Shown: positions 2,604 to 52,810, counted from the first letter of the stretch. The stretch is DNA of 64,000 bases from Myxococcales bacterium (GCA_020633555.1 JACKDL010000007.1:93821-157820), one strand, 5' to 3'. The notes: generated by a model not told the origin, from the sequence alone. Program-made: numbers and translations.

Positions 2604-3482
2604 ATGCGCCGCATCATGTGGGGCCTGCTGGGGCTGGCCCTGGTGGGGCTGCCGGCGGGCTCGGCCCTGGCCGAGAAGAACCCGGCCGAGAAGAACCCGG
2701 CCGAGAAGACCCCGGCCGAGAAGAAGCTCGACGCGGCCGATCCGCAGGCCACGAAGGCGATCATGCGCCTGATCAAGCGGGCCGAGCGGGCGGGCTACGA
2801 GCGCCACGACAAGAAGCGCTACTTCGAGGCCTTCACCGCCGACGCGGTGTGGGTCCGGGGCCGTCGGCCGGTGGCCGGCGAGTACGACCTGACCTGGAGC
2901 CGCCCCGAGTTCGAGCGCTACCGCGGCCTGCAGTGGGACGTGCCCCCCAGCGGACGCGACCGCATGTTCTTCCACGACGAGGAGGTGCAGGTCGAAGGCG
3001 ACAAGGCCCAGGTGGAGGTCGAGGTGCGGCGCAGCTTCTTCGGCGGCGACGGTGTCGAGGGCGTGCGCTATGAGCTGGTGAAGGACCGCAAGGGCTGGCG
3101 CATCGCCCACCGGCGGGAGTGGCCCAAGACCGAGGTCCTGGGGGTCGAGTCCTTCCGCTACGACGACGAGGGCTGGTTGGCGCTGGACGAGGAGCTGGCG
3201 GTCAAGGAGGGCGAGAGGGCCATTACCGGGCTGGCCCGGACGGTGGCGCTCGTGCGGGCCCTGCGCCACCAGGAGGCCTATGAGCTGGCGAAGGCCCTGG
3301 CCGCGACCCGGAAGTCTGACGGCACGCTCGACCTGCAGGCGGTGGTGGCCCACGCGGCGCTGGCCGTCGAGGTGAAGCAGATCGACGAGGCCATCGAGGT
3401 GATCAAGGCCGCGCGGAAGGAAGATCCCTCGGTGGAGGCGCCCATGAAGCTGCGCCACCTGATCCCGAGGACGCTGAAGTAG
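2604..3482 (+). CDS. secreted hypothetical protein with N-terminal EKNPA/EKTPA pentapeptide repeats
   Basis: GAGGAGG RBS 4 nt upstream of the ATG. Signal peptide MRRIMWGLLGLALVGLPAGSALA is followed by AEKNPAEKNPAEKTPAEKK. The remainder is a balanced, soluble-looking sequence (possible NTF2/SnoaL-like fold). Confidence 0.6.
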   Translation: MRRIMWGLLGLALVGLPAGSALAEKNPAEKNPAEKTPAEKKLDAADPQATKAIMRLIKRAERAGYERHDKKRYFEAFTADAVWVRGRRPVAGEYDLTWSRPEFERYRGLQWDVPPSGRDRMFFHDEEVQVEGDKAQVEVEVRRSFFGGDGVEGVRYELVKDRKGWRIAHRREWPKTEVLGVESFRYDDEGWLALDEELAVKEGERAITGLARTVALVRALRHQEAYELAKALAATRKSDGTLDLQAVVAHAALAVEVKQIDEAIEVIKAARKEDPSVEAPMKLRHLIPRTLK

Positions 3483-4300: not shown

Positions 4301-6231
<1,931 letters not shown>

Positions 6232-8745: not shown

Positions 8746-9222
8746 GTGATCGGGGTCATGTTCGTGTGCCTGGGCAACATCTGCCGCTCGCCCATGGCCG
8801 AGGGGGCCTTCCGCAAGCACGTGGAGGCCGCGGGCCTGGGCGCGCACTTCCGCATCCTGTCGTCGGGCACGGCCGGCTACCACGTGGGCGAGGCGCCTGA
8901 TCCGCGGGCCCAGAAGACGGCGCTGGGCCACGGCGTGGACATCTCGATGCTGCGGGGCCGCCAGCTCGTCAAAGAGGACCTGGCCAGCTTCGACTACGTG
9001 GTGGCCATGGATCGCAGCAACTGGACCAACATCCAGAAGCTGTACAAGCGGGGCCACACCGCGAAGACCAGCATGCTGCTCGAGGAGCTGCCCGACGCCG
9101 GCACCACCGAGGTGCCCGATCCCTACTACGGCGGCGACGCGGGCTTCGAGCACGTCTGGTCCCTGGTGGACCGCGCGGGCGCCCGGCTGCTCGCGCGGCT
9201 GCGGCGGGCGCACGGGCTGTAG
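8746..9222 (+). CDS. low-molecular-weight protein-tyrosine phosphatase
   Basis: P-loop VCLGNICRSPMAEG (CX5R) near the N-terminus and a DPYYG motif near the C-terminus. GTG start with GAGGAG RBS 8 nt upstream. Confidence 0.9.
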   Translation: MIGVMFVCLGNICRSPMAEGAFRKHVEAAGLGAHFRILSSGTAGYHVGEAPDPRAQKTALGHGVDISMLRGRQLVKEDLASFDYVVAMDRSNWTNIQKLYKRGHTAKTSMLLEELPDAGTTEVPDPYYGGDAGFEHVWSLVDRAGARLLARLRRAHGL

Positions 9223-9271
9223 CTTCGCTCGGGCTGCGCCCTCGCTAGACCGCTCGGGCTGTGCCCTCGCT

Positions 9272-9297
9272 GGGAGGGGGCCTGCATGCCCCCTCCC
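9272..9297 (+). terminator. GC hairpin GGGAGGGGG-N8-CCCCCTCCC downstream of the phosphatase gene
   Basis: Seen directly; a perfect 9-bp stem with no U-tract. It is preceded by a 21-bp direct repeat (9226-9246 and 9252-9272). Confidence 0.35.
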
Positions 9298-9720
9298 GAC
9301 CGCCGGCGGGCGCCGGCGCCCACCCCCAGGCCGGCCCTCGTCCCATCGCGGCCTTCGGCCGCGTGTGCCTCGGGCGACACCCTCACAGCGTCTTCGGTGC
9401 GTCCTCGCTCGCTGCGCTCGCTGTGGGCGCCCTCATCCTCGTTCGGGGTCGCACGGGCGAGCCCGCGCCTGGCCCTCGGGCCTGCGGCCCGAGAGGGCGG
9501 GACACACAGCCTGAGCGGGGAATGCTTTTGAATTCAGGCTCTTGCGATTTTCTCAGAACAAACTTCGCCGCCGACCGTAAGAGGCGGGCAGTGACCTGAC
9601 ACGGTTGCGGCGTCAGCAACTCCCCCAACCGCTGGCGACGCAGAACACGCAGACCCGACTTCGGAGCGACTCCCCCATCGTCTCCCCCGGTCGATGCGCT
9701 CTTCGGGTCACAGTTCGGGC

Positions 9721-9757
9721 CCCGGCGTTTCCCCCAACGCCGGGGCCTTTTTTTTGC
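9721..9757 (+). terminator. canonical rho-independent terminator (CCCGGCGTT-tccccc-AACGCCGGG followed by GCCTTTTTTTT)
   Basis: Seen directly on the + strand at 9721-9757: a 9-bp perfect stem plus an 8-T run. It is unusual in a ~70% GC genome and would terminate a + strand transcript arising between ~9300 and 9720. Confidence 0.8.
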
Positions 9758-9870
9758 CCTCAGGTCGCCCGACACCCCACAGCCAGGCCGCCCCCGCGAC
9801 GCGCGGAGGCCATTGCGGTGGGGTCATAGACCCGACACCTTGGAGCGACCACCGACACCCCGAGGTCCCC

Positions 9871-10167
9871 ATGCACTTGCGAACCGCTGTCAGCACCGCC
9901 CTGCTCTGCCTGGCCTGCACCCCCACCGGAAGCCCCACGCAGGCCCCCAAGAGCGCCGCCCCCGGCTCCGCGGCCCCGGTCAGCGCTGCGGCGCCCGCCA
10001 GCGCGGCGCCCGCCAGCGCGGCGCCCGCAAGCGCGGCTGCGGAGGAGACCCGACGGGGGGTGAAGCCCCACTACGTGCCCTGCGATCCGGCCCACCCCGA
10101 GCTGCCGTGCACCCCCGAGCCCACTCTGGCCCCGCCGTCGGCGGCCCCGGCGCCCGCCAACGACTGA
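9871..10167 (+). CDS. small lipoprotein with AAPAS tandem repeats
   Basis: MHLRTAVSTALLCLACTP gives a lipobox LLCLAC. The mature part is low-complexity (SAAPGSAAPVSAAAPASAAPASAAPASAAA) followed by a Cys pair. Confidence 0.5.
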   Translation: MHLRTAVSTALLCLACTPTGSPTQAPKSAAPGSAAPVSAAAPASAAPASAAPASAAAEETRRGVKPHYVPCDPAHPELPCTPEPTLAPPSAAPAPAND

Positions 10168-10240: not shown

Positions 10241-11438
10241 ATGACTCGACACAACCTCTGGATGGCCGTGGCCCTGGCGGGCGCGCTGTGGGCCTGCGAC
10301 GACGCCGACGACAGCCCGACCGACGCCGGCATGGGCGGCCAGGGCGGCGCGGGCGGCGCGGGCGGCGCGGGCGGCGCGGGCGGCGCGGGCGGCCAGGGCG
10401 GCATGGGCGGCGCGGGCGGCCAGGGCGGCGCGGGCGGCCAGGGCGGCGCGGGGGAATGGGTGGGGCGGCGACGATCCGTGCGTCACGGCCTGCACCACGC
10501 TGGCCGACTGCGCGGCCCAGGACACCTACTGCCCGGGCATCGACCCCGGCGCGTCCCGCGACGGCCTGTACGCCGGCTGTCTGGACTCGTGCGCCAACAT
10601 GGCCGCGCTGGCCACCATCGTGAACGGCTTCGGCGGCGACTGCGCCCGGGTCATCCCCACGGTCAGCACGGCCAGCGCCGACTTCGCGGCGAGCTGCGAG
10701 GGCGGCGGCATGGGCGGCGCGGGCGGTGAGGGCGGGATGGGCGGTGCTGGGGCGCGGGCGGTGCCGGTGGCGCGGGCGGTGCCGGTGGCGGGCGGCGCCG
10801 GTGGCGCGGGTGGCGCGGGCGGCGCGGGCGGCGCGGGCGGGGGGGAGGTGCCGGCCTGCGGCGCCGGGAGCGACTGCAACGCCGACGCGGACTGCCCGGG
10901 GGCGACCTGTCGCTCCATGACGGGCCCCGGCGGCGTGTGCACCTGCGTCGGCCCCGCCCCCGAGCCGCAGCGCAACTTCTGCGACGGGGGCGGCGGCCCG
11001 GGCGGTGGCTGCTGTGCCGACGCGGACTGTGCGGATCAGGGCCCCGGCGCCGTCTGCCAGGCCGAGGGCTACAACGCGCTCGATGGCTACTGCGGCGGCG
11101 CCGCCCCGCCCGACTGGAACGCTTGTCGGGTGGACGGCTGCGCGCAGGACGCGGACTGCGGCAACGCCGACTTCGTGTGCGTGCCGCGCGGGGCCTATGC
11201 CCACCGCTACGCCGTGTGCGCCCGGGTGGCCTGCCGCACCGACGCCGACTGTGGCGCCCGGGCGGGGGGCGTCTGCTCGCCCTTCTTCACCCGTTGCCGC
11301 AGCGACGGCTTCTTCTGCCGCTACCCCGACGATCCCTGCACCACCGACCAGGACTGCCAGGGCAACGAGCCCATGAGCTGTGTGCCCAACGCCAACGGCC
11401 AGGGCACCCAGTGCGTGGTGGATCTGCCGGCGCCGTAG
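10241..11438 (+). CDS. lipoprotein with GGxGG glycine repeats and C-terminal D-x-DC...C cysteine-repeat domain; reading frame broken by a 1-bp G-homopolymer length change near 10443-10447
   Basis: The ATG at 10241 begins a lipoprotein signal (MTRHNLWMAVALAGALWAC), followed by GGQGGAGGAGGAGG... repeats. After the run gcgGGGGGaat the protein-like frame switches (GNGWGGDDPCVTACTTLADCAAQDTYCPG...). It then continues to 11438 with repeated DADCPGATC / DADCADQGPGAVC / DADCGNADFVCV / DADCGARAGGVCS / DQDCQGNEPMSCV units. That frame has a TGA at 10242-10244 and no start of its own. Confidence 0.55.
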
Positions 11439-45350: not shown

Positions 45351-46709
45351 ATGCAGGTCCAGGAAGGCACCCGGGTGCTGCTCGTCGACGACGACCACGC
45401 CTTCGGGGTGGCCATGGCCAAGGCCCTGCGCCGCCGCGGCTTCCACGTCGAGATCGCAGAAGGGGGGCGCGCTGCCCTCCAGGCCCTGGCGCGGCCCGCG
45501 GACCAGGCCCCGGCCGTGGCCGTGCTGGACCTGCGCATGCCCGAGGTGGACGGGCTGGAGGTGCTGCGCCGCACCCCCGACCGGGTGACGCCCGTGGTGG
45601 TGCTCACCGGCCACGGCACCGTGCCCGACGCGGTGGAGTGCATGCGGCTGGGCGCCTACACCTTCCTCACCAAGCCCGTGGACGCCGCGGACCTGGCGCC
45701 GGTGCTCACCCAGGCGGCACGCCCGCTGGCGCCCGAGGTGGGCCACGAACTGGTGGGCGAGAGCGACGCGACCCGGCAGCTCCGGCGGCTGCTCGATCGC
45801 CTGGCCGAGGCCGACGAGCCGGTGCTGCTGACGGGCGAGACGGGCACGGGCAAAGAGGTCGCCGCCCGCCGGCTGCACCAGGCGTCGCGCCGCGCCGAGC
45901 AGCCCTTCCTGGCCGTGAACATGGCCTGCCTGCCCCGCGACCTGGTGGAGAGCGAGCTGTTCGGCCACGCCCGCGGCGCCTTCACGGGCGCCGACCGGCG
46001 CAAGGCCGGGCTCTTCGAGGAGGTCCAGGGGGGCACCCTGTTCCTCGACGAGGTGGCCGAGCTGCCCCTGGAGCACCAGGCCAAGCTGCTGCGGGTGCTG
46101 GAGACGAGCACCTTCCGGTCGGTGGGCGAGAACCGCGAGCGCGCCTTCCACGGCCGCCTCGTGGCCGCCACCCACCAGGATCTGCTGGGCCTGGTGCGCG
46201 AGGGGCGCTTCCGCGAGGACCTGTACTACCGCCTGCAGGTGCTGCCGCTGGAGCTGCCCGCGCTGCGGCAGCGCCGCGACGACATCGTGCCCATCGCCCG
46301 CCACTGGCTGGCGCGGGTCGCCACGAGCCCTGTCCTTCAGCCCCGAGGCCGAGCAGCTGCCTGCTGGCCACGACTGGCCGGGCAACGTGCGCGAGGTGGT
46401 GAACCTGTCGCGCCGCGTGTCGCTGTTCGCCGAGCGGGGGCGCGTGGACGCGGCGCTGGTGAGTCGGATGCTGGCGGCCAACCCGTTCCCGGCGCCCGCC
46501 GCGCCGTGCCCGCCGCCCGCCGAGCCGCGCCGACGCCGCCCGAGAGATCAGCCTGGAGGCGCTCGAACGCCGCCACATCCAGCGGCTGCTCGCCCACCAC
46601 CACAACATCACCCGCGTCGCCCGGATCCTCCAGACATCAACCGCCGCACCCTGCAGCGCAAACTGCGCGCCTGGGGCATCGATCACGATCGACTTCGGCG
46701 GGCGACTGA
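45351..46709 (+). CDS. sigma54-dependent response regulator (NtrC family); C-terminal third disrupted by at least 3 apparent frameshifts, end approximate
   Basis: Receiver domain [25 protein letters not shown]...[15 protein letters not shown]+ sigma54-activator domain: [18 protein letters not shown] (Walker A), GAFTGA (sigma54 contact), GTLFLDEV (Walker B), [10 protein letters not shown]. After [10 protein letters not shown] the expected ...[20 protein letters not shown]... and the Fis-type HTH (..[17 protein letters not shown]) are found in other frames. Confidence 0.75.
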
Positions 46710-46834
46710 CCCGCGTCGCGCGCCGGTGCGGCAAAATGCATGCGGCAAGGCGCGCACCCGCGCCCGTCAAATGCCGCCAAGCGTGTTTGACTGGACAAAC
46801 CAAGACCTCGGTGCTGAAAAGCGCCGCGCCTGCG

Positions 46835-46850
46835 TGGAACGCGTCTTGCT
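46835..46850 (+). promoter_or_regulatory. sigma54 (RpoN) -24/-12 promoter TGGAAC-gcgtc-TTGCT upstream of actA
   Basis: Seen directly: GG at 46836-46837 and GC at 46848-46849 with exact 10-nt spacing. Good fit to TGGCAC-N5-TTGCW. It lies about 110 bp upstream of the actA ATG, directly downstream of the sigma54-dependent activator gene. Confidence 0.6.
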
Positions 46851-46961
46851 GGTTCGGACTTGCGCCCAGGGATGGCGCCTTGGGGAGACGGCCGCCGCCG
46901 CGGCAGTAACGCCGGCCCGTGTTCGAGCGATGCTCGGCGGCGCGCACGAGGTTGCCGGAGG

Positions 46962-47654
46962 ATGAGCAACGAAGAACGCCGGAGCCGAAAGACGCCGTCG
47001 AGCCCTCGTCTTTCCACGCAGTGGCACAACAAGCATCCCGCTGCTCATCTTCGGGATCATCGGGCCGGTCGCCACCGTCGCCGTGATCGGCGCGTCTGGT
47101 ACTGGTTCAGCCCAGAGTTCACCGACGTCGGCTACCAGCCGGAGCAGCCGGTGCCGTACAGCCACAAGCTGCACGCGGGCGAGCTCGGCATCGACTGCCG
47201 CTATTGCCATACGGGCGTCGAGACACGGCGCACGCCCGGATGCCCCCGACGCAGACCTGCATGAACTGCCACGCCCACATCAAGACCGAGAGCCCGAAGG
47301 CTGCGCCGGTGCGCGAGAGCTGGGAGAGCGGCACGGTCGGTGGAGTGGGTGCGGATCCACAAGATCCCCGACTACGCCTACTTCGACCACAGCGCGCACA
47401 TCCGCGCGGGCGTCGGCTGCGAGTCGTGCCACGGGCGGATCGACCAGATGGTGGTCGTCAGGTGACGAGCCGCTGAGCATGGGCTGGTGCCTCGAGTGCC
47501 ACCGCGCGCCCCGAGAACCACCTGCGCCCCACGTCAGGAGGTCACCAAGATGGGCTACGAGGCGCCGGGCGGCGACCAGCTGGCGCTGGGAAGAAGCATG
47601 GCCGAAGAGAAGAACATCAACCCGCCGATCCACTGCTCGGGGTGCCACCGATGA
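46962..47654 (+). pseudogene. actA: Alternative Complex III pentaheme cytochrome c subunit ActA; not translatable as given (multiple single-base frameshifts)
   Basis: Five CxxCH motifs are recoverable across frames: CRYCH, CMNCH, CESCH, CLECH, CSGCH. N-terminal TM ...[19 protein letters not shown]... and [40 protein letters not shown] are in different frames. Stop after ...IHCSGCHR at 47652-47654. 'Pseudogene' here may equally mean sequencing error. Confidence 0.65.
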
Positions 47655-50600
47655 TGAACGGACCAACGATCGCAAGCACTGGCGCAGCCTGGACGAGCGC
47701 GAGGCCACCCCGGCGTGGCGCGAGGCGGTCGGCAACGAGTTTGCTGAGGACGTCGTCGCGCCGGAGATGGATGGGCCCACCGGCGCCACTTCCTGGGCGT
47801 GATGGGCGCGTCGATGGCCATGACCAGCCTCGCGGGCTGCGTGCGGCGGCCGGAAGAGAACATCCTGCCCTACGCCCAGGCGCCCGAGAGGTGCTGCCGG
47901 GCATGCCCAAGCTGGTACGCCACGGGCACGCAGCATCGGCGGCGACGCCATCGGCCTGCTGGTGGAGAGCCACGAGGGGCGCCCGACCAAGATCGAGGGC
48001 AACCCCGCCCACCAGCACGAGCCTGTCGGGGGCGCACCTGGCCATGCACCAGGGCATGGTGCTCGACCTGTACGATCCGACCCGTCGCGCCTCAAGACGC
48101 CGCGCAAAGGGGCCTCGCGGCGAGTGGGAGGACGCGACCAGCTTCATCGTGCGACCCACTTCGCCGGCCTGCGCGAGGGCCGCGGGGCCGAGCTGGCGGT
48201 GCTCTGCGCCGACCTGCCCTCGCCCACGCTCCTGGCGCTGCGCGAGCGGTTCGTCGCCACCTTCCCGGCAGGCGCTGGTACACCTTCGAGTCGGTCAGCG
48301 ACGACAACCAGTGCGCGCGGGCCTGCAACGCGGTGTTCACGGACAGGGCGCCAAGCCCGGTGAGGCCCTGCGGCCCCACTACCGGCTGCACGAGCGCTTC
48401 GACGTCATCGTGCTGGCCATCGACGCCGACTTCCTCGGCACCGAGGGCGACGCGGTGCAGAACGCGCGGCATCTGGGCCGAGACGCGCAGCGTCGACAAG
48501 GCCCGGCGACCGCGATGAGCCGGCTCTACGCCGTCGAGGGAACTACTACAGCGTCACCGGCACAACGCCGATCACCGGCTGCGGCTGCGCAACGCCGAGG
48601 TGGAGCAGTTCACCTTCGGCCTCGCCGCCAAGCTGGCCGAGCAGCGGGCCGCCGGCACGCCCGCCGGCCGTGCTGCCGCGCGCCGCCAGAGGGTCGCCGC
48701 GCGCTCGGCGCGGCGTCGACGCCAAGGCGCAGAAGTTCATCGACGCCGCCGCCGACCTGCTGCCGATCCCGCGAACGGCGCGGACTGGCCGCGCCGCTGC
48801 TCATCGCCGGCCGCCGCCAGAGCGCCGGTGGTGCACGCGCTCGTGGCCGCCATCAACCAGGGCGCTCGGCGCGCAGGGCGTCACGCTCCAGTACTACTTC
48901 GACCAGCCCCGTGCGGACGACGACGACGCGACCGGCGCGACATGGCGGGGCTGAAGGCGCTGGTCGACGCGCTGCAACGGCGGATCAGGTCGAGACCCTG
49001 GTCATCCTGGGCGGCAACCCGGTCTACACCGCCCCGGGCGACCTCGACTTCGCCGCCGCCATGAAGAAGGGCAAGCACCCGCATCGTGCCTGGCGGACCA
49101 GCACGACGAGACCAGCGGCCCTGGCCACCTGGGCCATCCCGCGGGCCCATTTCCTCGAGGCCTGGGGCGACGTCTGGCCGCGCCACCGACGGCACGGTCA
49201 CCATCCAGCAGCCGCTGATCGCGCCGCTGCACGGCGCCTGGAGCGAGATCGAGCTGCTCGCGCGCAGTTGCTCGGCGACGGCAAGACCGACGGCTACGAC
49301 GTGGTGCGCGAGCTCTGGAAGCGCAAGCACGGGCGCCAAGGGCTTCCACAAGCGCCTGGCGGCGCTGGCTGCACGACGGCCGCATGCCTGAGCCGTTCTT
49401 CGGGGCCTTGCCGGCCTACAAGAACGTCAACCAGGGCGCTGGGCGATCTGCTCGCCGGCGCCGGGCCCCGGCCCCCGACGGAGGCCAGCCCGCGAGATCA
49501 TCTTCGTCGACGACGCCCGAACCTGTTCGACGGCCGCTTCGCCAACAACAGCTGGCTGCAGGAGGCCCCGGACCCGCTGACCAAGCTCACCTGGGACAAC
49601 GTGGCGCTGATCAGCCCGGCCACCGCCAAGCGCCTGGGCATCGAGGATGAGGACCGCGTGCGGGTCGAGGATCAACGGCGCCGTCGCTCGACACCGCCGC
49701 CTGGATCCTGCCGGGTCTGGCCGACAACACCGTGGCCGTGGCGCTCGGCTACGGGCGGCAGTTCGACAACTACCTGCCCTACCACGACAGGGGGCATGGT
49801 CGGCTTCGACGTCAACCGCGCTGCGCAGCCACACCGCGCCCGGCTGGGCCGCGGCGCGCGGGTCAGCAAGCGCGCCGGCAGTACCCGCTCGCCTGCGTGC
49901 AGCACTACGACCGGCAGGAGCCGGGCTACGGCTACCCAGCCCGCGCCCATGGTCCGCGAGAACGACGCTCGAGGGCTTCGCGGCAAGGACCCGAGTTCGC
50001 CAAGTCGGGCATCATCGAGCACGGCGAGCGCCGGCACGGCGCCGCCGAGATGCGGTGGTCCTCCACCCGCCGCTGAAGACCCTGTACGGCGCACGCGACC
50101 CCGCAGGACAGCAAGGGCATGCAGTGGGGCATGGTCATCGACCTGAACCGCTGCACCGGCTGCAACGCCTGCGTGGTGGCCTGCCGTGTCCGAGAACAAC
50201 ATGCCCTCGGTCGGCAAGGACCAGGTCATGCGCGGTCGCGAGATGCACTGGATCCGCATCGACCGCTACTTCGTCGGCGACGATGCGGCCCCCAGGTCGT
50301 GCACCAGCCCCATCGTCTGCCAGCAGTGCGAGATGGCGCCCTGCGAGAACGTCTGCCCGGTCGCCGCCACCGACGCACAGCCCCGAGGGGCTCAACGACA
50401 TGGCCTACAACCGCTGCATCGGCACGCGGTACTGCGCGAACAACTGCCCGTTCAAGGTGCGGAAGTTCAACTTCTACAACTACTCGAAGGGCAGCCCGAG
50501 GTCTACCACATGGTGCGCAACCCCGACGTCACGGTGCGATTCCGCGGCGTGATGGAGAAGTGCACCTACTGCGTGCAGCGCATCAACCGCACAAGCGCCG

Positions 50601-50855: not shown

Positions 50856-52270
<1,415 letters not shown>

Positions 52271-52278
<8 letters not shown>

Positions 52279-52810
52279 CAAGAAGCGCAACTGGGGCGTG
52301 GTCGCGCAGTTCGCCAACCCGGCGGACCTGCTCCACGCGGCCCAGAAGGCTCGCGAGGCGGGCTACAAGAAGTTCGAGGTCTACTCGCCCTTCCCCGTGC
52401 ACGGGATGGACGACGCCATGGGCCTGCCCGGCTCCAAGGTGCCCTGGATCTCGCTGATGGGTGGCCTGACGGGAATGACCATCGGGCTCACGCTGCAGTG
52501 GTGGACCGGCGCGGTGGACTACCCGCTCGTCATCGGCGGCAAGCCCCTGTTCGCCTGGGAGTTCGGTCTCCCGGTCACCTTCGAGCTCTCGGTCCTGCTG
52601 GCCAGCTTCGGCACGGTCTTCGGCATGTTCGCGCTGAACAAGCTGCCCAAGCCGTACCACCCGCTGGACAAGGTGCCGATGTTCAAGGGCGTGACGGACG
52701 ACAAGTTCTTCATGTCCATCGAGGTCGCCGATCCGATGTTCGACCTGCACAAGAGCCAGGCGTTCCTCGAGGAAATCGGCGGCACGAACGTCACCGTGGT
52801 GGAGGAGTAA
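52271..52810 (+). CDS. actD: Alternative Complex III subunit ActD (DUF3341 family)
   Basis: 179 aa from [51 protein letters not shown], the conserved ActD N-terminus, followed by two TM helices. The start overlaps the actC stop. Confidence 0.85.

What the first reader, a model, noticed from the sequence alone, without database searches (positions are those of the whole stretch)
9300..9760. Candidate small RNA in a 650-bp noncoding island ending in the only canonical intrinsic terminator of the window
The 650-bp gap between the phosphatase stop (9222) and the lipoprotein start (9871) is the largest noncoding gap in the window. It contains a locally AT-richer core (GGGGAATGCTTTTGAATTCAGGCTCTTGCGATTTTCTCAGAACAAACTTCGCC, 9520-9572). 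It ends in a perfect 9-bp stem plus T8 terminator on the + strand (9721-9757). Such a hairpin-U-tract signal is rare in 70% GC genomes, where most genes lack U-tract terminators, and it typically marks sRNAs in Myxococcota. The ORFs called here by the track (9261-9599 and others) are compositionally implausible. The phosphatase already has its own GC hairpin at 9272-9297, so the terminator is not needed for that gene.
Basis: seen in the sequence. Interest (0 to 1): 0.55.

Follow-up and report, generated by a model that had tools for sequence, protein, structure and literature searches.

The report
C-rich-loop small RNA gene, Myxococcales
The noncoding island most likely holds a self-contained gene for a small regulatory RNA of about 170 nt, with its own promoter and terminator and four CUCCCCC motifs, a known type of regulator seen here in an uncultured myxobacterium and absent from RNA databases.

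Summary
Window 9717-9755 is a 12-13-bp GC hairpin followed by T8. That T8 is the only A or T run of 6 or more in all 64 kb. The stretch at 9500-9583 has the lowest GC in the window.

This block is the only intergenic sequence shared with the one other genome that carries it, a related Myxococcales MAG (L002). There it lies inverted next to the same phosphatase gene. That rules out a phosphatase terminator or a leader of the downstream lipoprotein gene.

The block contains:
- an ECF-sigma-type promoter-like site, GAAC-N16-CGTAAGAG, with identical spacing in both genomes;
- a predicted RNA of about 168 nt (about 9588-9756).

All 47 consensus base pairs are kept in both genomes, six of them through compensatory double changes. 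Four YUCCCCC motifs occur, three in hairpin loops with unpaired probability of at least 0.96. A 49-nt core is 96% identical, against 66% at four-fold degenerate sites.

No Rfam family reaches its threshold. The best sub-threshold hits are ar14 and sX13, which are C-rich-loop, anti-Shine-Dalgarno-type sRNAs.

My reading is a new family of a known kind of trans-acting sRNA. Expression, sigma factor and targets are untested, and only two copies are known. Interest is modest.

The parts
9535..9583 (+). Promoter-like region. An A/T-rich tract (GATTTTCTC) is followed by an ECF-sigma-type -35 GAAC (9556-9559), a 16-nt spacer and a -10 CGTAAGAG (9576-9583).
   Evidence: It has the lowest GC in the 64 kb. 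Homology with L002 begins here. GAAC-N16-CGTAAGAG is present with identical spacing in L002. GAAC-N16-CGTAA occurs once in the window, against 0.04 expected. AAC/CGT is the hallmark of ECF promoters (PMC8103513). No sigma-70-like site was found.
9588..9756 (+). Predicted sRNA of about 168 nt. The 5' end is inferred to within a few nt from the promoter geometry; the 3' end lies in the T8 run.
   Evidence: Folding gives -75.4 kcal/mol with z = -4.06; the L002 copy gives -80.2 kcal/mol with z = -6.43. The consensus structure has 47 pairs, all kept in both copies, six of them compensatory. No conserved ORF is present, and indels of 2, 1 and 1 nt separate the two copies.
9591..9599 (+). P1, 5' strand (GUGACCUGA). 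It pairs with 9703-9711 (UCGGGUCAC) and closes the body of the RNA.
   Evidence: nine pairs, one of them U-G in the window and C-G in L002.
9602..9649 (+). Hairpin P2, with CUCCCCC (9620-9626) in its apical loop.
   Evidence: Thirteen pairs, five with compensatory double changes against L002. The loop C5 run has unpaired probability 1.00 in both copies.
9656..9693 (+). Hairpin P3. The loop carries CUCCCCC (9670-9676). A second CUCCCCC (9682-9688) is half sequestered by pairing of its CUCC with GGAG at 9663-9666.
   Evidence: This hairpin is part of the 49-nt core 9663-9711, which is 47/49 identical to L002, against 66% at four-fold sites.
9694..9702 (+). Invariant unpaired linker AUGCGCUCU.
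   Evidence: It is identical in both copies and unpaired in the consensus fold. Its function is unknown.
9703..9711 (+). P1, 3' strand (UCGGGUCAC).
9717..9755 (+). Intrinsic terminator: a 12-13-bp GC stem, the loop UCCCCC (fourth C-rich motif, 9729-9735) and T8.
   Evidence: One compensatory pair against L002. Homology with L002 ends 3 nt after the T run.

Best explanation
Window 9535-9758 is a stand-alone gene for a structured trans-acting small RNA of about 168 nt.

Transcription would start near 9588 from an ECF-sigma-type promoter (GAAC-N16-CGTAAGAG), that is, under a stress or envelope-type alternative sigma factor. It would stop at the strong hairpin-U8 terminator.

The RNA folds into a closing stem, two internal hairpins and the terminator hairpin. 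It displays YUCCCCC motifs in three apical loops, plus a fourth that is partly masked. These C-rich, anti-Shine-Dalgarno-like loops would pair with G-rich ribosome-binding regions (GGGGGA/GGGGGAG) of target mRNAs. Pairing would mostly block translation initiation or change mRNA stability, as shown for sX13, the ar14/cuckoo (CcsR, NfeR1) RNAs and GsrN.

**Shown:**
- a discrete conserved block whose orientation is independent of its neighbours;
- the terminator;
- a conserved structure with compensatory changes;
- C-rich motifs placed in accessible loops;
- purifying selection on the core.

**Inferred:**
- that it is transcribed;
- the start site and the sigma factor;
- pairing with mRNAs and its direction of effect;
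- the identity of the targets.
For: **An autonomous unit.**
- blastn and MAFFT align only 9534-9758 to L002 2127-2349, on the opposite strand, at 73-74% identity. The flanks on both sides cannot be aligned.
- In L002 the terminator faces the 3' end of the phosphatase gene.

**Promoter.**
- The region has the lowest GC in the window.
- GAAC-N16-CGTAAGAG is conserved, with 7 non-conserved nt before the conserved GTGACC in both copies.
- The motif is unique in the window, with 0.04 expected.

**Terminator.**
- It carries the only T run of 6 or more in 64 kb.
- It is the only convincing terminator hit.

**Structure.**
- Fold z-scores are -4.06 and -6.43.
- 47/47 consensus pairs are kept in both copies, six through double changes and seven or eight through one-sided changes.
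- With the partners slid by 1-3 columns, only 31-45% of cells pair and 0-1 double changes remain.

**Motifs.**
- Four of the 19 YTCCCCC sites in the whole window (both strands) lie within 116 nt on one strand.
- The C5 run of three of them has unpaired probability of at least 0.96 in both copies.

**Selection.**
- The core 9663-9711 is 47/49 identical, against 0.66 identity at 353 four-fold degenerate sites in the flanking genes.

**Resemblance to known families.**
- The only Rfam hits, all below threshold, lie on the + strand over 9601-9757. They are to C-rich-loop sRNAs: ar14 at 29.3 bits, plus NsiR1, anti-hemB, 6C and sX13. For the L002 copy sX13 is the best hit.

**Mechanistic precedent.** PMC3771888, PMC4615179 and PMC5869019.
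Against: - No expression data of any kind are available.
- Only two copies are known, so the covariation rests on a single pairwise comparison. 9 of 500 column shuffles reach the observed values.
- A third related genome lacks a copy at the syntenic site.
- A structured-pattern scan of JGI metagenomes found no further copy.
- Overall identity (74%) is only modestly above the four-fold-site background (66%); the constraint is concentrated in the core and the stems.
- No ECF sigma gene was found among the ten candidate ORFs of the window tested against Pfam (five sigma-sized ones plus neighbours). The -35 is GAAC rather than a full GGAAC.
- No target was identified. A naive duplex search was uninformative in this GC-rich DNA.
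Confidence: 0.6

Rival explanations
1. It is a protein-titrating (sponge) RNA. The repeated C-rich loops would be binding sites for an RNA-binding protein, as the GGA loops of CsrB/RsmZ bind CsrA, rather than seeds for mRNA pairing.
For: The RNA has several near-identical motifs displayed in loops of repeated hairpin modules. An invariant unpaired linker has no obvious pairing role.
Against: No poly(C)-binding regulator is known in this lineage, and none is encoded next to the RNA in either genome. Characterised RNAs with this design (sX13, ar14/cuckoo, GsrN) are reported or proposed to act through C-rich loops, by mRNA pairing where tested. The motif contains CUCC, the core of the anti-Shine-Dalgarno sequence.
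Confidence: 0.12
2. It is a remnant or passenger of a small mobile or rearranging cassette. The promoter-like and terminator sequences would have no present regulatory role, and the apparent conservation would reflect recent shared ancestry.
For: Orientation, and order relative to gene X, differ between the two genomes. Only two copies are known. The adjacent 312-nt spacer in the window looks like an insertion, with tandem and inverted repeats.
Against: Four-fold sites of the neighbouring genes are near saturation (66% identity), yet the core is 96% identical and every stem pair is kept through 13-14 substitutions. No terminal inverted repeats or target duplications bound the block. There is no second copy in the window, in any fetched locus, or in the plasmid, phage or viral collections.
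Confidence: 0.1
3. It is a cis-acting leader or attenuator of the downstream lipoprotein gene (9871-10167). Alternatively, it is the 3' UTR and terminator of the phosphatase operon.
For: In the window it lies on the same strand as both genes, 115 nt upstream of the lipoprotein ATG.
Against: In L002 the block is inverted, so its terminator points at the phosphatase 3' end. No gene follows it there, and the lipoprotein gene is absent from that site. In the window a 312-nt non-conserved spacer and a separate promoter-like site lie between the phosphatase and the RNA.
Confidence: 0.04
4. It encodes a small protein.
For: GC-rich DNA gives long stop-free stretches. An ATG at 9694 opens a frame that runs through the terminator into the lipoprotein frame.
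Against: GC3 is 0.70-0.74, against more than 0.9 in real genes. Indels of 1 and 2 nt separate the two copies. No frame with a start codon is conserved beyond the block that is already conserved at nucleotide level. Substitutions follow the stem pairing, not codon positions.
Confidence: 0.03

Closest known systems
sX13 of Xanthomonadaceae (Rfam RF02232; PMC3771888)
   Same: Both are stand-alone intergenic sRNAs in a GC-rich genome. Both have three stable stem-loops, each with a C-rich (4C/5C) apical loop, including UCCCCC in the last loop. sX13 represses mRNAs that carry G-rich motifs at the ribosome-binding region. It is the best sub-threshold Rfam hit for the L002 copy.
   Different: Scores are 17.6 and 24.8 bits against a gathering score of 50, so there is no detectable homology. 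This RNA is longer (about 168 nt against 115 nt). It has a predicted closing stem and a fourth motif, and comes from a different phylum. The sX13 promoter is not of ECF type as far as I know.
ar14 / cuckoo RNA family (CcsR, NfeR1; Rfam RF02344; PMC4615179)
   Same: Both are built modularly from 2-4 similar hairpins that all carry the same anti-Shine-Dalgarno-like C-rich loop motif, with variable stems. Copies sit in different genomic neighbourhoods, and the RNAs are stress-induced. ar14 is the best sub-threshold Rfam hit for the window copy, at 29.3 bits and E = 0.002.
   Different: The loop motif is CUCCCCC, not CCUCCUCCC. The score is half the gathering threshold (58.8). Cuckoo RNAs do not form multiloops and were described in the alphaproteobacterial orders Rhizobiales and Rhodobacterales. 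This RNA has a closing stem and comes from Myxococcales.
GsrN of Caulobacter (PMC5869019)
   Same: GsrN is an sRNA transcribed from an ECF-sigma (sigma-T/EcfG) promoter of the GGAAC-N15-17-CGTT type. Its exposed loop of six cytosines recognises G-rich mRNA leaders.
   Different: GsrN has one C-rich loop and activates katG. It is processed, and it is confined to Caulobacteraceae and Rhizobiaceae. No sequence similarity was seen. The promoter assignment for this RNA is inferred only.
6C RNA of Actinobacteria (Rfam RF01066)
   Same: Both have C-rich hairpin loops in a high-GC lineage. The terminator hairpin gives a weak hit.
   Different: The score is 21 bits against a gathering score of 47, and only the terminator hairpin aligns. 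The architecture and the phylum differ.
Pxr, the best-characterised myxobacterial sRNA (PMC5684412)
   Same: Both are three-stem-loop sRNAs from Myxococcota.
   Different: No Pxr hit appears in either Rfam search. As far as I know Pxr has no repeated C-rich loop motif. There is no evidence of relatedness.

Membership tests
Rfam ar14 / cuckoo RNAs | Covariance-model score at or above the gathering threshold (58.8 bits) | tested here: not met
   29.3 bits. There is no hit in gathering mode.
Rfam ar14 / cuckoo RNAs | Each hairpin loop carries CCUCCUCCC | tested here: not met
   The loops carry CUCCCCC or UUCCCCC. Family definition from PMC4615179.
Rfam ar14 / cuckoo RNAs | 2-4 adjacent hairpins without a multiloop | tested here: inconclusive
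   Three motif-bearing hairpins are present. However, a conserved 9-bp closing stem makes a multiloop in the MFE and consensus folds.
Rfam sX13 | Covariance-model score at or above the gathering threshold (50 bits) | tested here: not met
   17.6 bits for the window and 24.8 bits for L002.
Rfam sX13 | Three stable stems with apical 4C/5C loops | tested here: met
   This is a functional resemblance, not homology.
Trans-acting C-rich-loop (anti-SD-type) sRNA, as a functional class | An independent transcription unit, with its own promoter and an intrinsic terminator, not tied to a neighbouring gene | tested here: met
   The block is inverted relative to its neighbours in L002, and homology is bounded by the promoter-like site and the terminator. 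The promoter is predicted only.
Trans-acting C-rich-loop (anti-SD-type) sRNA, as a functional class | C-rich motifs exposed in hairpin loops and conserved | tested here: met
   All four motifs are conserved. The C5 run of three of them has unpaired probability of at least 0.96 in both copies.
Trans-acting C-rich-loop (anti-SD-type) sRNA, as a functional class | Secondary structure maintained by compensatory substitutions | tested here: met
   47/47 pairs are kept, six through double changes. Slid controls give 0-1 double changes. Only two sequences were available.
Trans-acting C-rich-loop (anti-SD-type) sRNA, as a functional class | A discrete stable transcript is expressed | not testable with these tools
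   No transcriptome data are accessible.
Trans-acting C-rich-loop (anti-SD-type) sRNA, as a functional class | Base pairing with G-rich ribosome-binding regions of target mRNAs | tested here: inconclusive
   duplexfold against 39 gene starts did not separate from background. The neighbouring gene at 10241 has GAGGGGGA 5 nt before its ATG, complementary to UCCCCC. That match is only 6 bp.
ECF-sigma-dependent sRNA (GsrN-like) | AAC at -35 and CGT at -10 with a spacer of about 16 nt, upstream of the RNA 5' end | tested here: met
   GAAC-N16-CGTAAGAG is present in both copies. Hallmark from PMC8103513. Sigma dependence itself is untested.
cis-regulatory leader / attenuator | A fixed position and orientation upstream of the regulated gene | tested here: not met
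   In L002 the block is inverted and no gene lies downstream of it.

The most novel reading that the evidence does not exclude
This would be an independently evolved, lineage-restricted counterpart of the alphaproteobacterial 'cuckoo' RNAs. It would be a multi-seed anti-Shine-Dalgarno sRNA cassette, driven by an ECF sigma factor, that relocates or inverts as a unit while staying linked to the same two genes: an LMW tyrosine phosphatase and a secreted Gly/Cys-rich lipoprotein. It would tune translation of G-rich-RBS envelope or secreted proteins in an uncultured Myxococcales clade.
Probability: 0.3. Interest if true: 0.45.

Novelty: new member of a known kind. Interest (0 to 1): 0.33.

Why it matters
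Very few sRNAs are known in Myxococcota beyond Pxr, and none in uncultured lineages. If this RNA is expressed, it would add a new family to the recurrent design of repeated C-rich loops that mimic the anti-Shine-Dalgarno sequence. That would support the view that this design evolves convergently in GC-rich bacteria. It would also give a concrete handle, a promoter motif plus a seed motif, for finding an ECF-sigma regulon and its post-transcriptional arm in these genomes. The work also shows that U-tract terminators in genomes above 70% GC can be used efficiently to flag sRNA genes. The gain is incremental and does not change any concept.

Tried and rejected
1. **Rfam.** Gathering mode on the whole window gave nothing. 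E-value mode gave only sub-threshold hits. There are no tRNA or tmRNA genes.
2. **Genome-contig scan.** I used the loose pattern GGAGNNNYTCCCCCNNNNNCTCCCCC.
3. **Metagenome-contig scan.** I added a downstream T6 to the pattern. It gave 36 hits, none homologous.
4. **Other collections.** Two viral-contig scans, plus blastn against plasmids and phages, gave nothing.
5. **Synteny.**
   - Phosphatase homologues at 75% identity (L003/L169/L170) and at about 59% identity (L004-L009) carry no copy.
   - Homologues of gene X (L166-L168) carry no copy either.
   - The lipoprotein and the P0148 protein were not on record.
6. **Other promoter types.** The tool's sigma-70 consensus scan found no site; sigma-54, sigma-32 and sigma-28 consensus were compared by eye. 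None fits both copies.
7. **ECF sigma gene in the window.** Pfam on ten candidate ORFs (five sigma-sized ones plus neighbours) found none.
8. **Target prediction.** RNA.duplexfold on 39 gene starts could not be told from background in this GC-rich DNA.
9. **Small ORF.** Rejected.
10. **Mobile-element boundaries.** No convincing terminal repeats were found.

Full report
**1. What is in the sequence**

The window has 72.6% GC. Its phosphatase protein is identical to proteins of two NCBI 'Myxococcales bacterium' MAGs.

The co-directional MFS-transporter and LMW-phosphatase genes end at 9222. The next coding-like signal begins near 9830-9871, with a small lipoprotein ORF whose GC3 is 0.90. The ORFs listed across the gap have GC3 of 0.70-0.74, whereas real genes here exceed 0.9.

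The terminator is real. GGGCCCCGGCGUU / UCCCCC / AACGCCGGGGCC(U) lies at 9717-9748 and is followed by T8. That T8 is the only A or T homopolymer of 6 or more on either strand of the 64 kb. Terminator scans of the whole window found no other site with an uninterrupted T run. Their other 19 hits are short stems with broken T tracts inside genes, no more than modestly above shuffle expectation (9 against 4.0 +/- 2.0 in the first 20 kb; at or near expectation elsewhere).

The AT-richer core is also real. The 50-nt windows within 9500-9583 fall to GC 0.42, the lowest value in the window (mean 0.726, sd 0.073).

**2. The real unit is 9535-9758**

The phosphatase has very few close relatives among 5.8 billion proteins: one at 84% identity (P0002) and one at 75% (P0003). 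The rest are at 61% or below.

The contig of the 84% relative (L002, MAG GCA_030424955.1) carries the same element immediately after its phosphatase gene, but on the opposite strand. MAFFT and blastn align window 9534-9758 to L002 2127-2349 (minus strand) at 73-74% identity. The similarity starts in the AT-rich tract and stops 3 nt after the T8. The 312 nt between the phosphatase and the block, and everything after the terminator, have no counterpart in L002.

The gene on the other side of the block in L002 is the homologue (74% amino-acid identity) of the Gly/Cys-rich secreted protein gene at window 10599-11438. Its order relative to the RNA differs:
- window: phosphatase>, RNA>, lipoprotein>, X>;
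- L002: phosphatase>, <RNA, <X.

A single block inversion cannot give this arrangement. The RNA block therefore behaves as a separate unit.

The terminator is not the phosphatase terminator. The block is also not a leader of the lipoprotein gene, which is absent from that site in L002.

**3. Promoter**

Both copies carry, at the start of the homology, an A/T-rich tract followed by GAAC, exactly 16 nt, and CGTAAGAG. Then come 7 nt that are not conserved, and then the conserved GTGACC that begins the first helix.

GAAC-N16-CGTAA occurs once in the window, with 0.04 expected from shuffles. AAC at -35 and CGT at -10 is the recognised hallmark of ECF-sigma promoters (PMC8103513). CGTAA-type -10 elements are documented for some ECF groups (PMC4336711).

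The sigma-70 scan found nothing. By inspection no sigma-54, sigma-32 or sigma-28 consensus fits both copies.

I therefore place the start near 9586-9590, giving an RNA of about 168 nt. This is inference. No ECF sigma gene was found among the ten candidate ORFs of the window tested against Pfam, five sigma-sized ones plus neighbours.

**4. The RNA**

Each copy folds much better than its shuffles:
- window: -75.4 kcal/mol, z = -4.06;
- L002: -80.2 kcal/mol, z = -6.43.

The RNAalifold consensus has these elements:
- a 9-bp closing stem P1 (9591-9599 with 9703-9711);
- hairpin P2 (9602-9649);
- hairpin P3 (9656-9693);
- a 9-nt unpaired linker;
- the terminator hairpin.

All 47 pairs form in both copies. 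Six have changes on both sides (five in P2, one in the terminator) and seven or eight have one-sided G-U-type changes. Sliding the 3' partners by 1-3 columns drops pairing to 31-45% and double changes to 0-1. With two sequences this is suggestive rather than statistical proof: 9 of 500 column shuffles reach the observed values.

The element's signature is the motif YUCCCCC. The whole window contains 19 matches on both strands (40 expected from composition). Four of them lie at 9620, 9670, 9682 and 9729 on the + strand. By my own Poisson estimate from the background rate of the other 15 sites, four matches in 116 nt has a probability of about 1e-9.

All four motifs are conserved in L002. In both copies the C5 runs of three motifs sit in apical loops with unpaired probability of at least 0.96. 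The fourth is half masked by pairing of its CUCC with an upstream GGAG. The hairpins are also repeats of one another: 9600-9629 against 9709-9738, and 9615-9627 against 9665-9677.

The constraint is concentrated. Four-fold degenerate sites of the three neighbouring genes are only 66% identical between the two genomes (n = 353). The 49-nt core 9663-9711 is 47/49 identical, and paired columns are 80% identical against 67% for unpaired ones.

No small protein is supported. GC3 is not coding-like, indels of 1 and 2 nt separate the copies, and no frame with a start codon is shared beyond the block that is already conserved at nucleotide level.

**5. Comparison with known families**

No Rfam 15 family reaches its gathering score anywhere in the window, and there is no tRNA or tmRNA.

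In permissive mode the hits pile up on the + strand over 9601-9757. They are to ar14 (29.3 bits against 58.8), NsiR1, anti-hemB, the betaproteobacterial toxic sRNA, 6C and sX13. For the L002 copy, sX13 is the best hit (24.8 bits against 50).

Several of these (ar14, sX13, 6C) are RNAs with C-rich loops in front of a terminator. The resemblance is one of design, not of ancestry. The membership tests therefore fail for each named family:
- the score is too low;
- the motif is CUCCCCC rather than CCUCCUCCC;
- the phylum is different;
- the predicted multiloop is not part of the cuckoo definition (PMC4615179).

Functionally, the closest matches are:
- sX13, with three stem-loops, 4C/5C loops and repression of mRNAs with G-rich ribosome-binding regions (PMC3771888);
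- the ar14/cuckoo RNAs;
- GsrN, for the combination of an ECF promoter with a C-rich loop (PMC5869019).

**6. Mechanism proposed**

I propose an ECF-sigma-controlled, trans-acting sRNA whose exposed UCCCCC loops pair with GGGGGA(G)-type ribosome-binding regions.

The neighbouring gene at 10241 has GAGGGGGA 5 nt before its ATG and is a candidate target. However, a 6-bp match is not evidence by itself, and a naive duplex scan was uninformative.

A protein-sponge role, a decaying mobile cassette, a cis leader and a small ORF are the rivals. The last two are contradicted by L002 and by composition.

**7. How widespread it is**

I found no further copy in any of these:
- the window itself;
- the 170 fetched loci (blastn and nhmmer);
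- the third related genome's phosphatase locus;
- loci of gene-X homologues;
- JGI metagenomes, by structured pattern;
- viral contigs;
- plasmids and phages.

My first scan of the GTDB genomes was too loose and saturated with chance hits. The distribution across Myxococcota genomes therefore remains untested. That is the main gap after expression.

**8. Verdict**

The element is best described as a new, narrowly distributed family of the known class of C-rich-loop sRNAs. It is a solid candidate, unannotated and absent from Rfam, but not conceptually new. Interest is about 0.33.

Noticed in passing
window 46480-47753: This is the only other stretch of 300 nt or more without a coding-like GC3 signal. 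It holds the end of an NtrC-type activator gene whose C-terminal HTH looks frameshifted. It also holds a near-consensus sigma-54 promoter, TGGAACGCGTCTTGCT (46835-46850, +). Finally, it holds what reads as the multihaem cytochrome ActA of an alternative complex III operon (CxxCH motifs; ActD lies at 52247-52810), broken by several frameshifts. This is either a pseudogene or indel errors in the assembly.
   Followed up: partly
window 9223-9534: The 312-nt GC-rich spacer between the phosphatase and the sRNA promoter is absent from L002. It carries a 25-nt tandem repeat CGCTCGGGCTG[C/T]GCCCTCGCT (9226-9246 and 9251-9271), an inverted partner at 9505-9518 and a GC palindrome at 9272-9297. The NCBI contig of the same species (L001, 99.8% identical) ends inside it, at 9467. 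It may be a small insertion or a repeat-like element.
   Followed up: partly
window 10241-11438; L002 2384-3133 (-): The Gly-rich/Cys-rich secreted protein next to the sRNA is read as two overlapping ORFs in different frames in the window (10241-10729 and 10599-11438). This is probably one lipoprotein gene with a frameshift in the Gly-rich repeat. Its homologue stays next to the sRNA in L002 despite the rearrangement. The family has no Pfam domain and only 27 database relatives.
   Followed up: partly
window 9871-10167: This is a small Ala/Pro-rich lipoprotein ORF with the lipobox LLCLAC and the repeat AAPASAAPASAAPASAA. It has no exact match in the protein collection and no counterpart at the corresponding site in L002.
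   Followed up: no
L017 about 6056-6081 (-) and L029 about 2879-2904 (-): Two contigs labelled 'uncultured delta proteobacterium' share a nearly identical stretch of about 200 nt. It contains GAGGGGGAGTTCCTCCCCCTCACACTCCCCC followed by GAGGGGGGAG. This may be a different conserved hairpin element and is unrelated to the finding.
   Followed up: no
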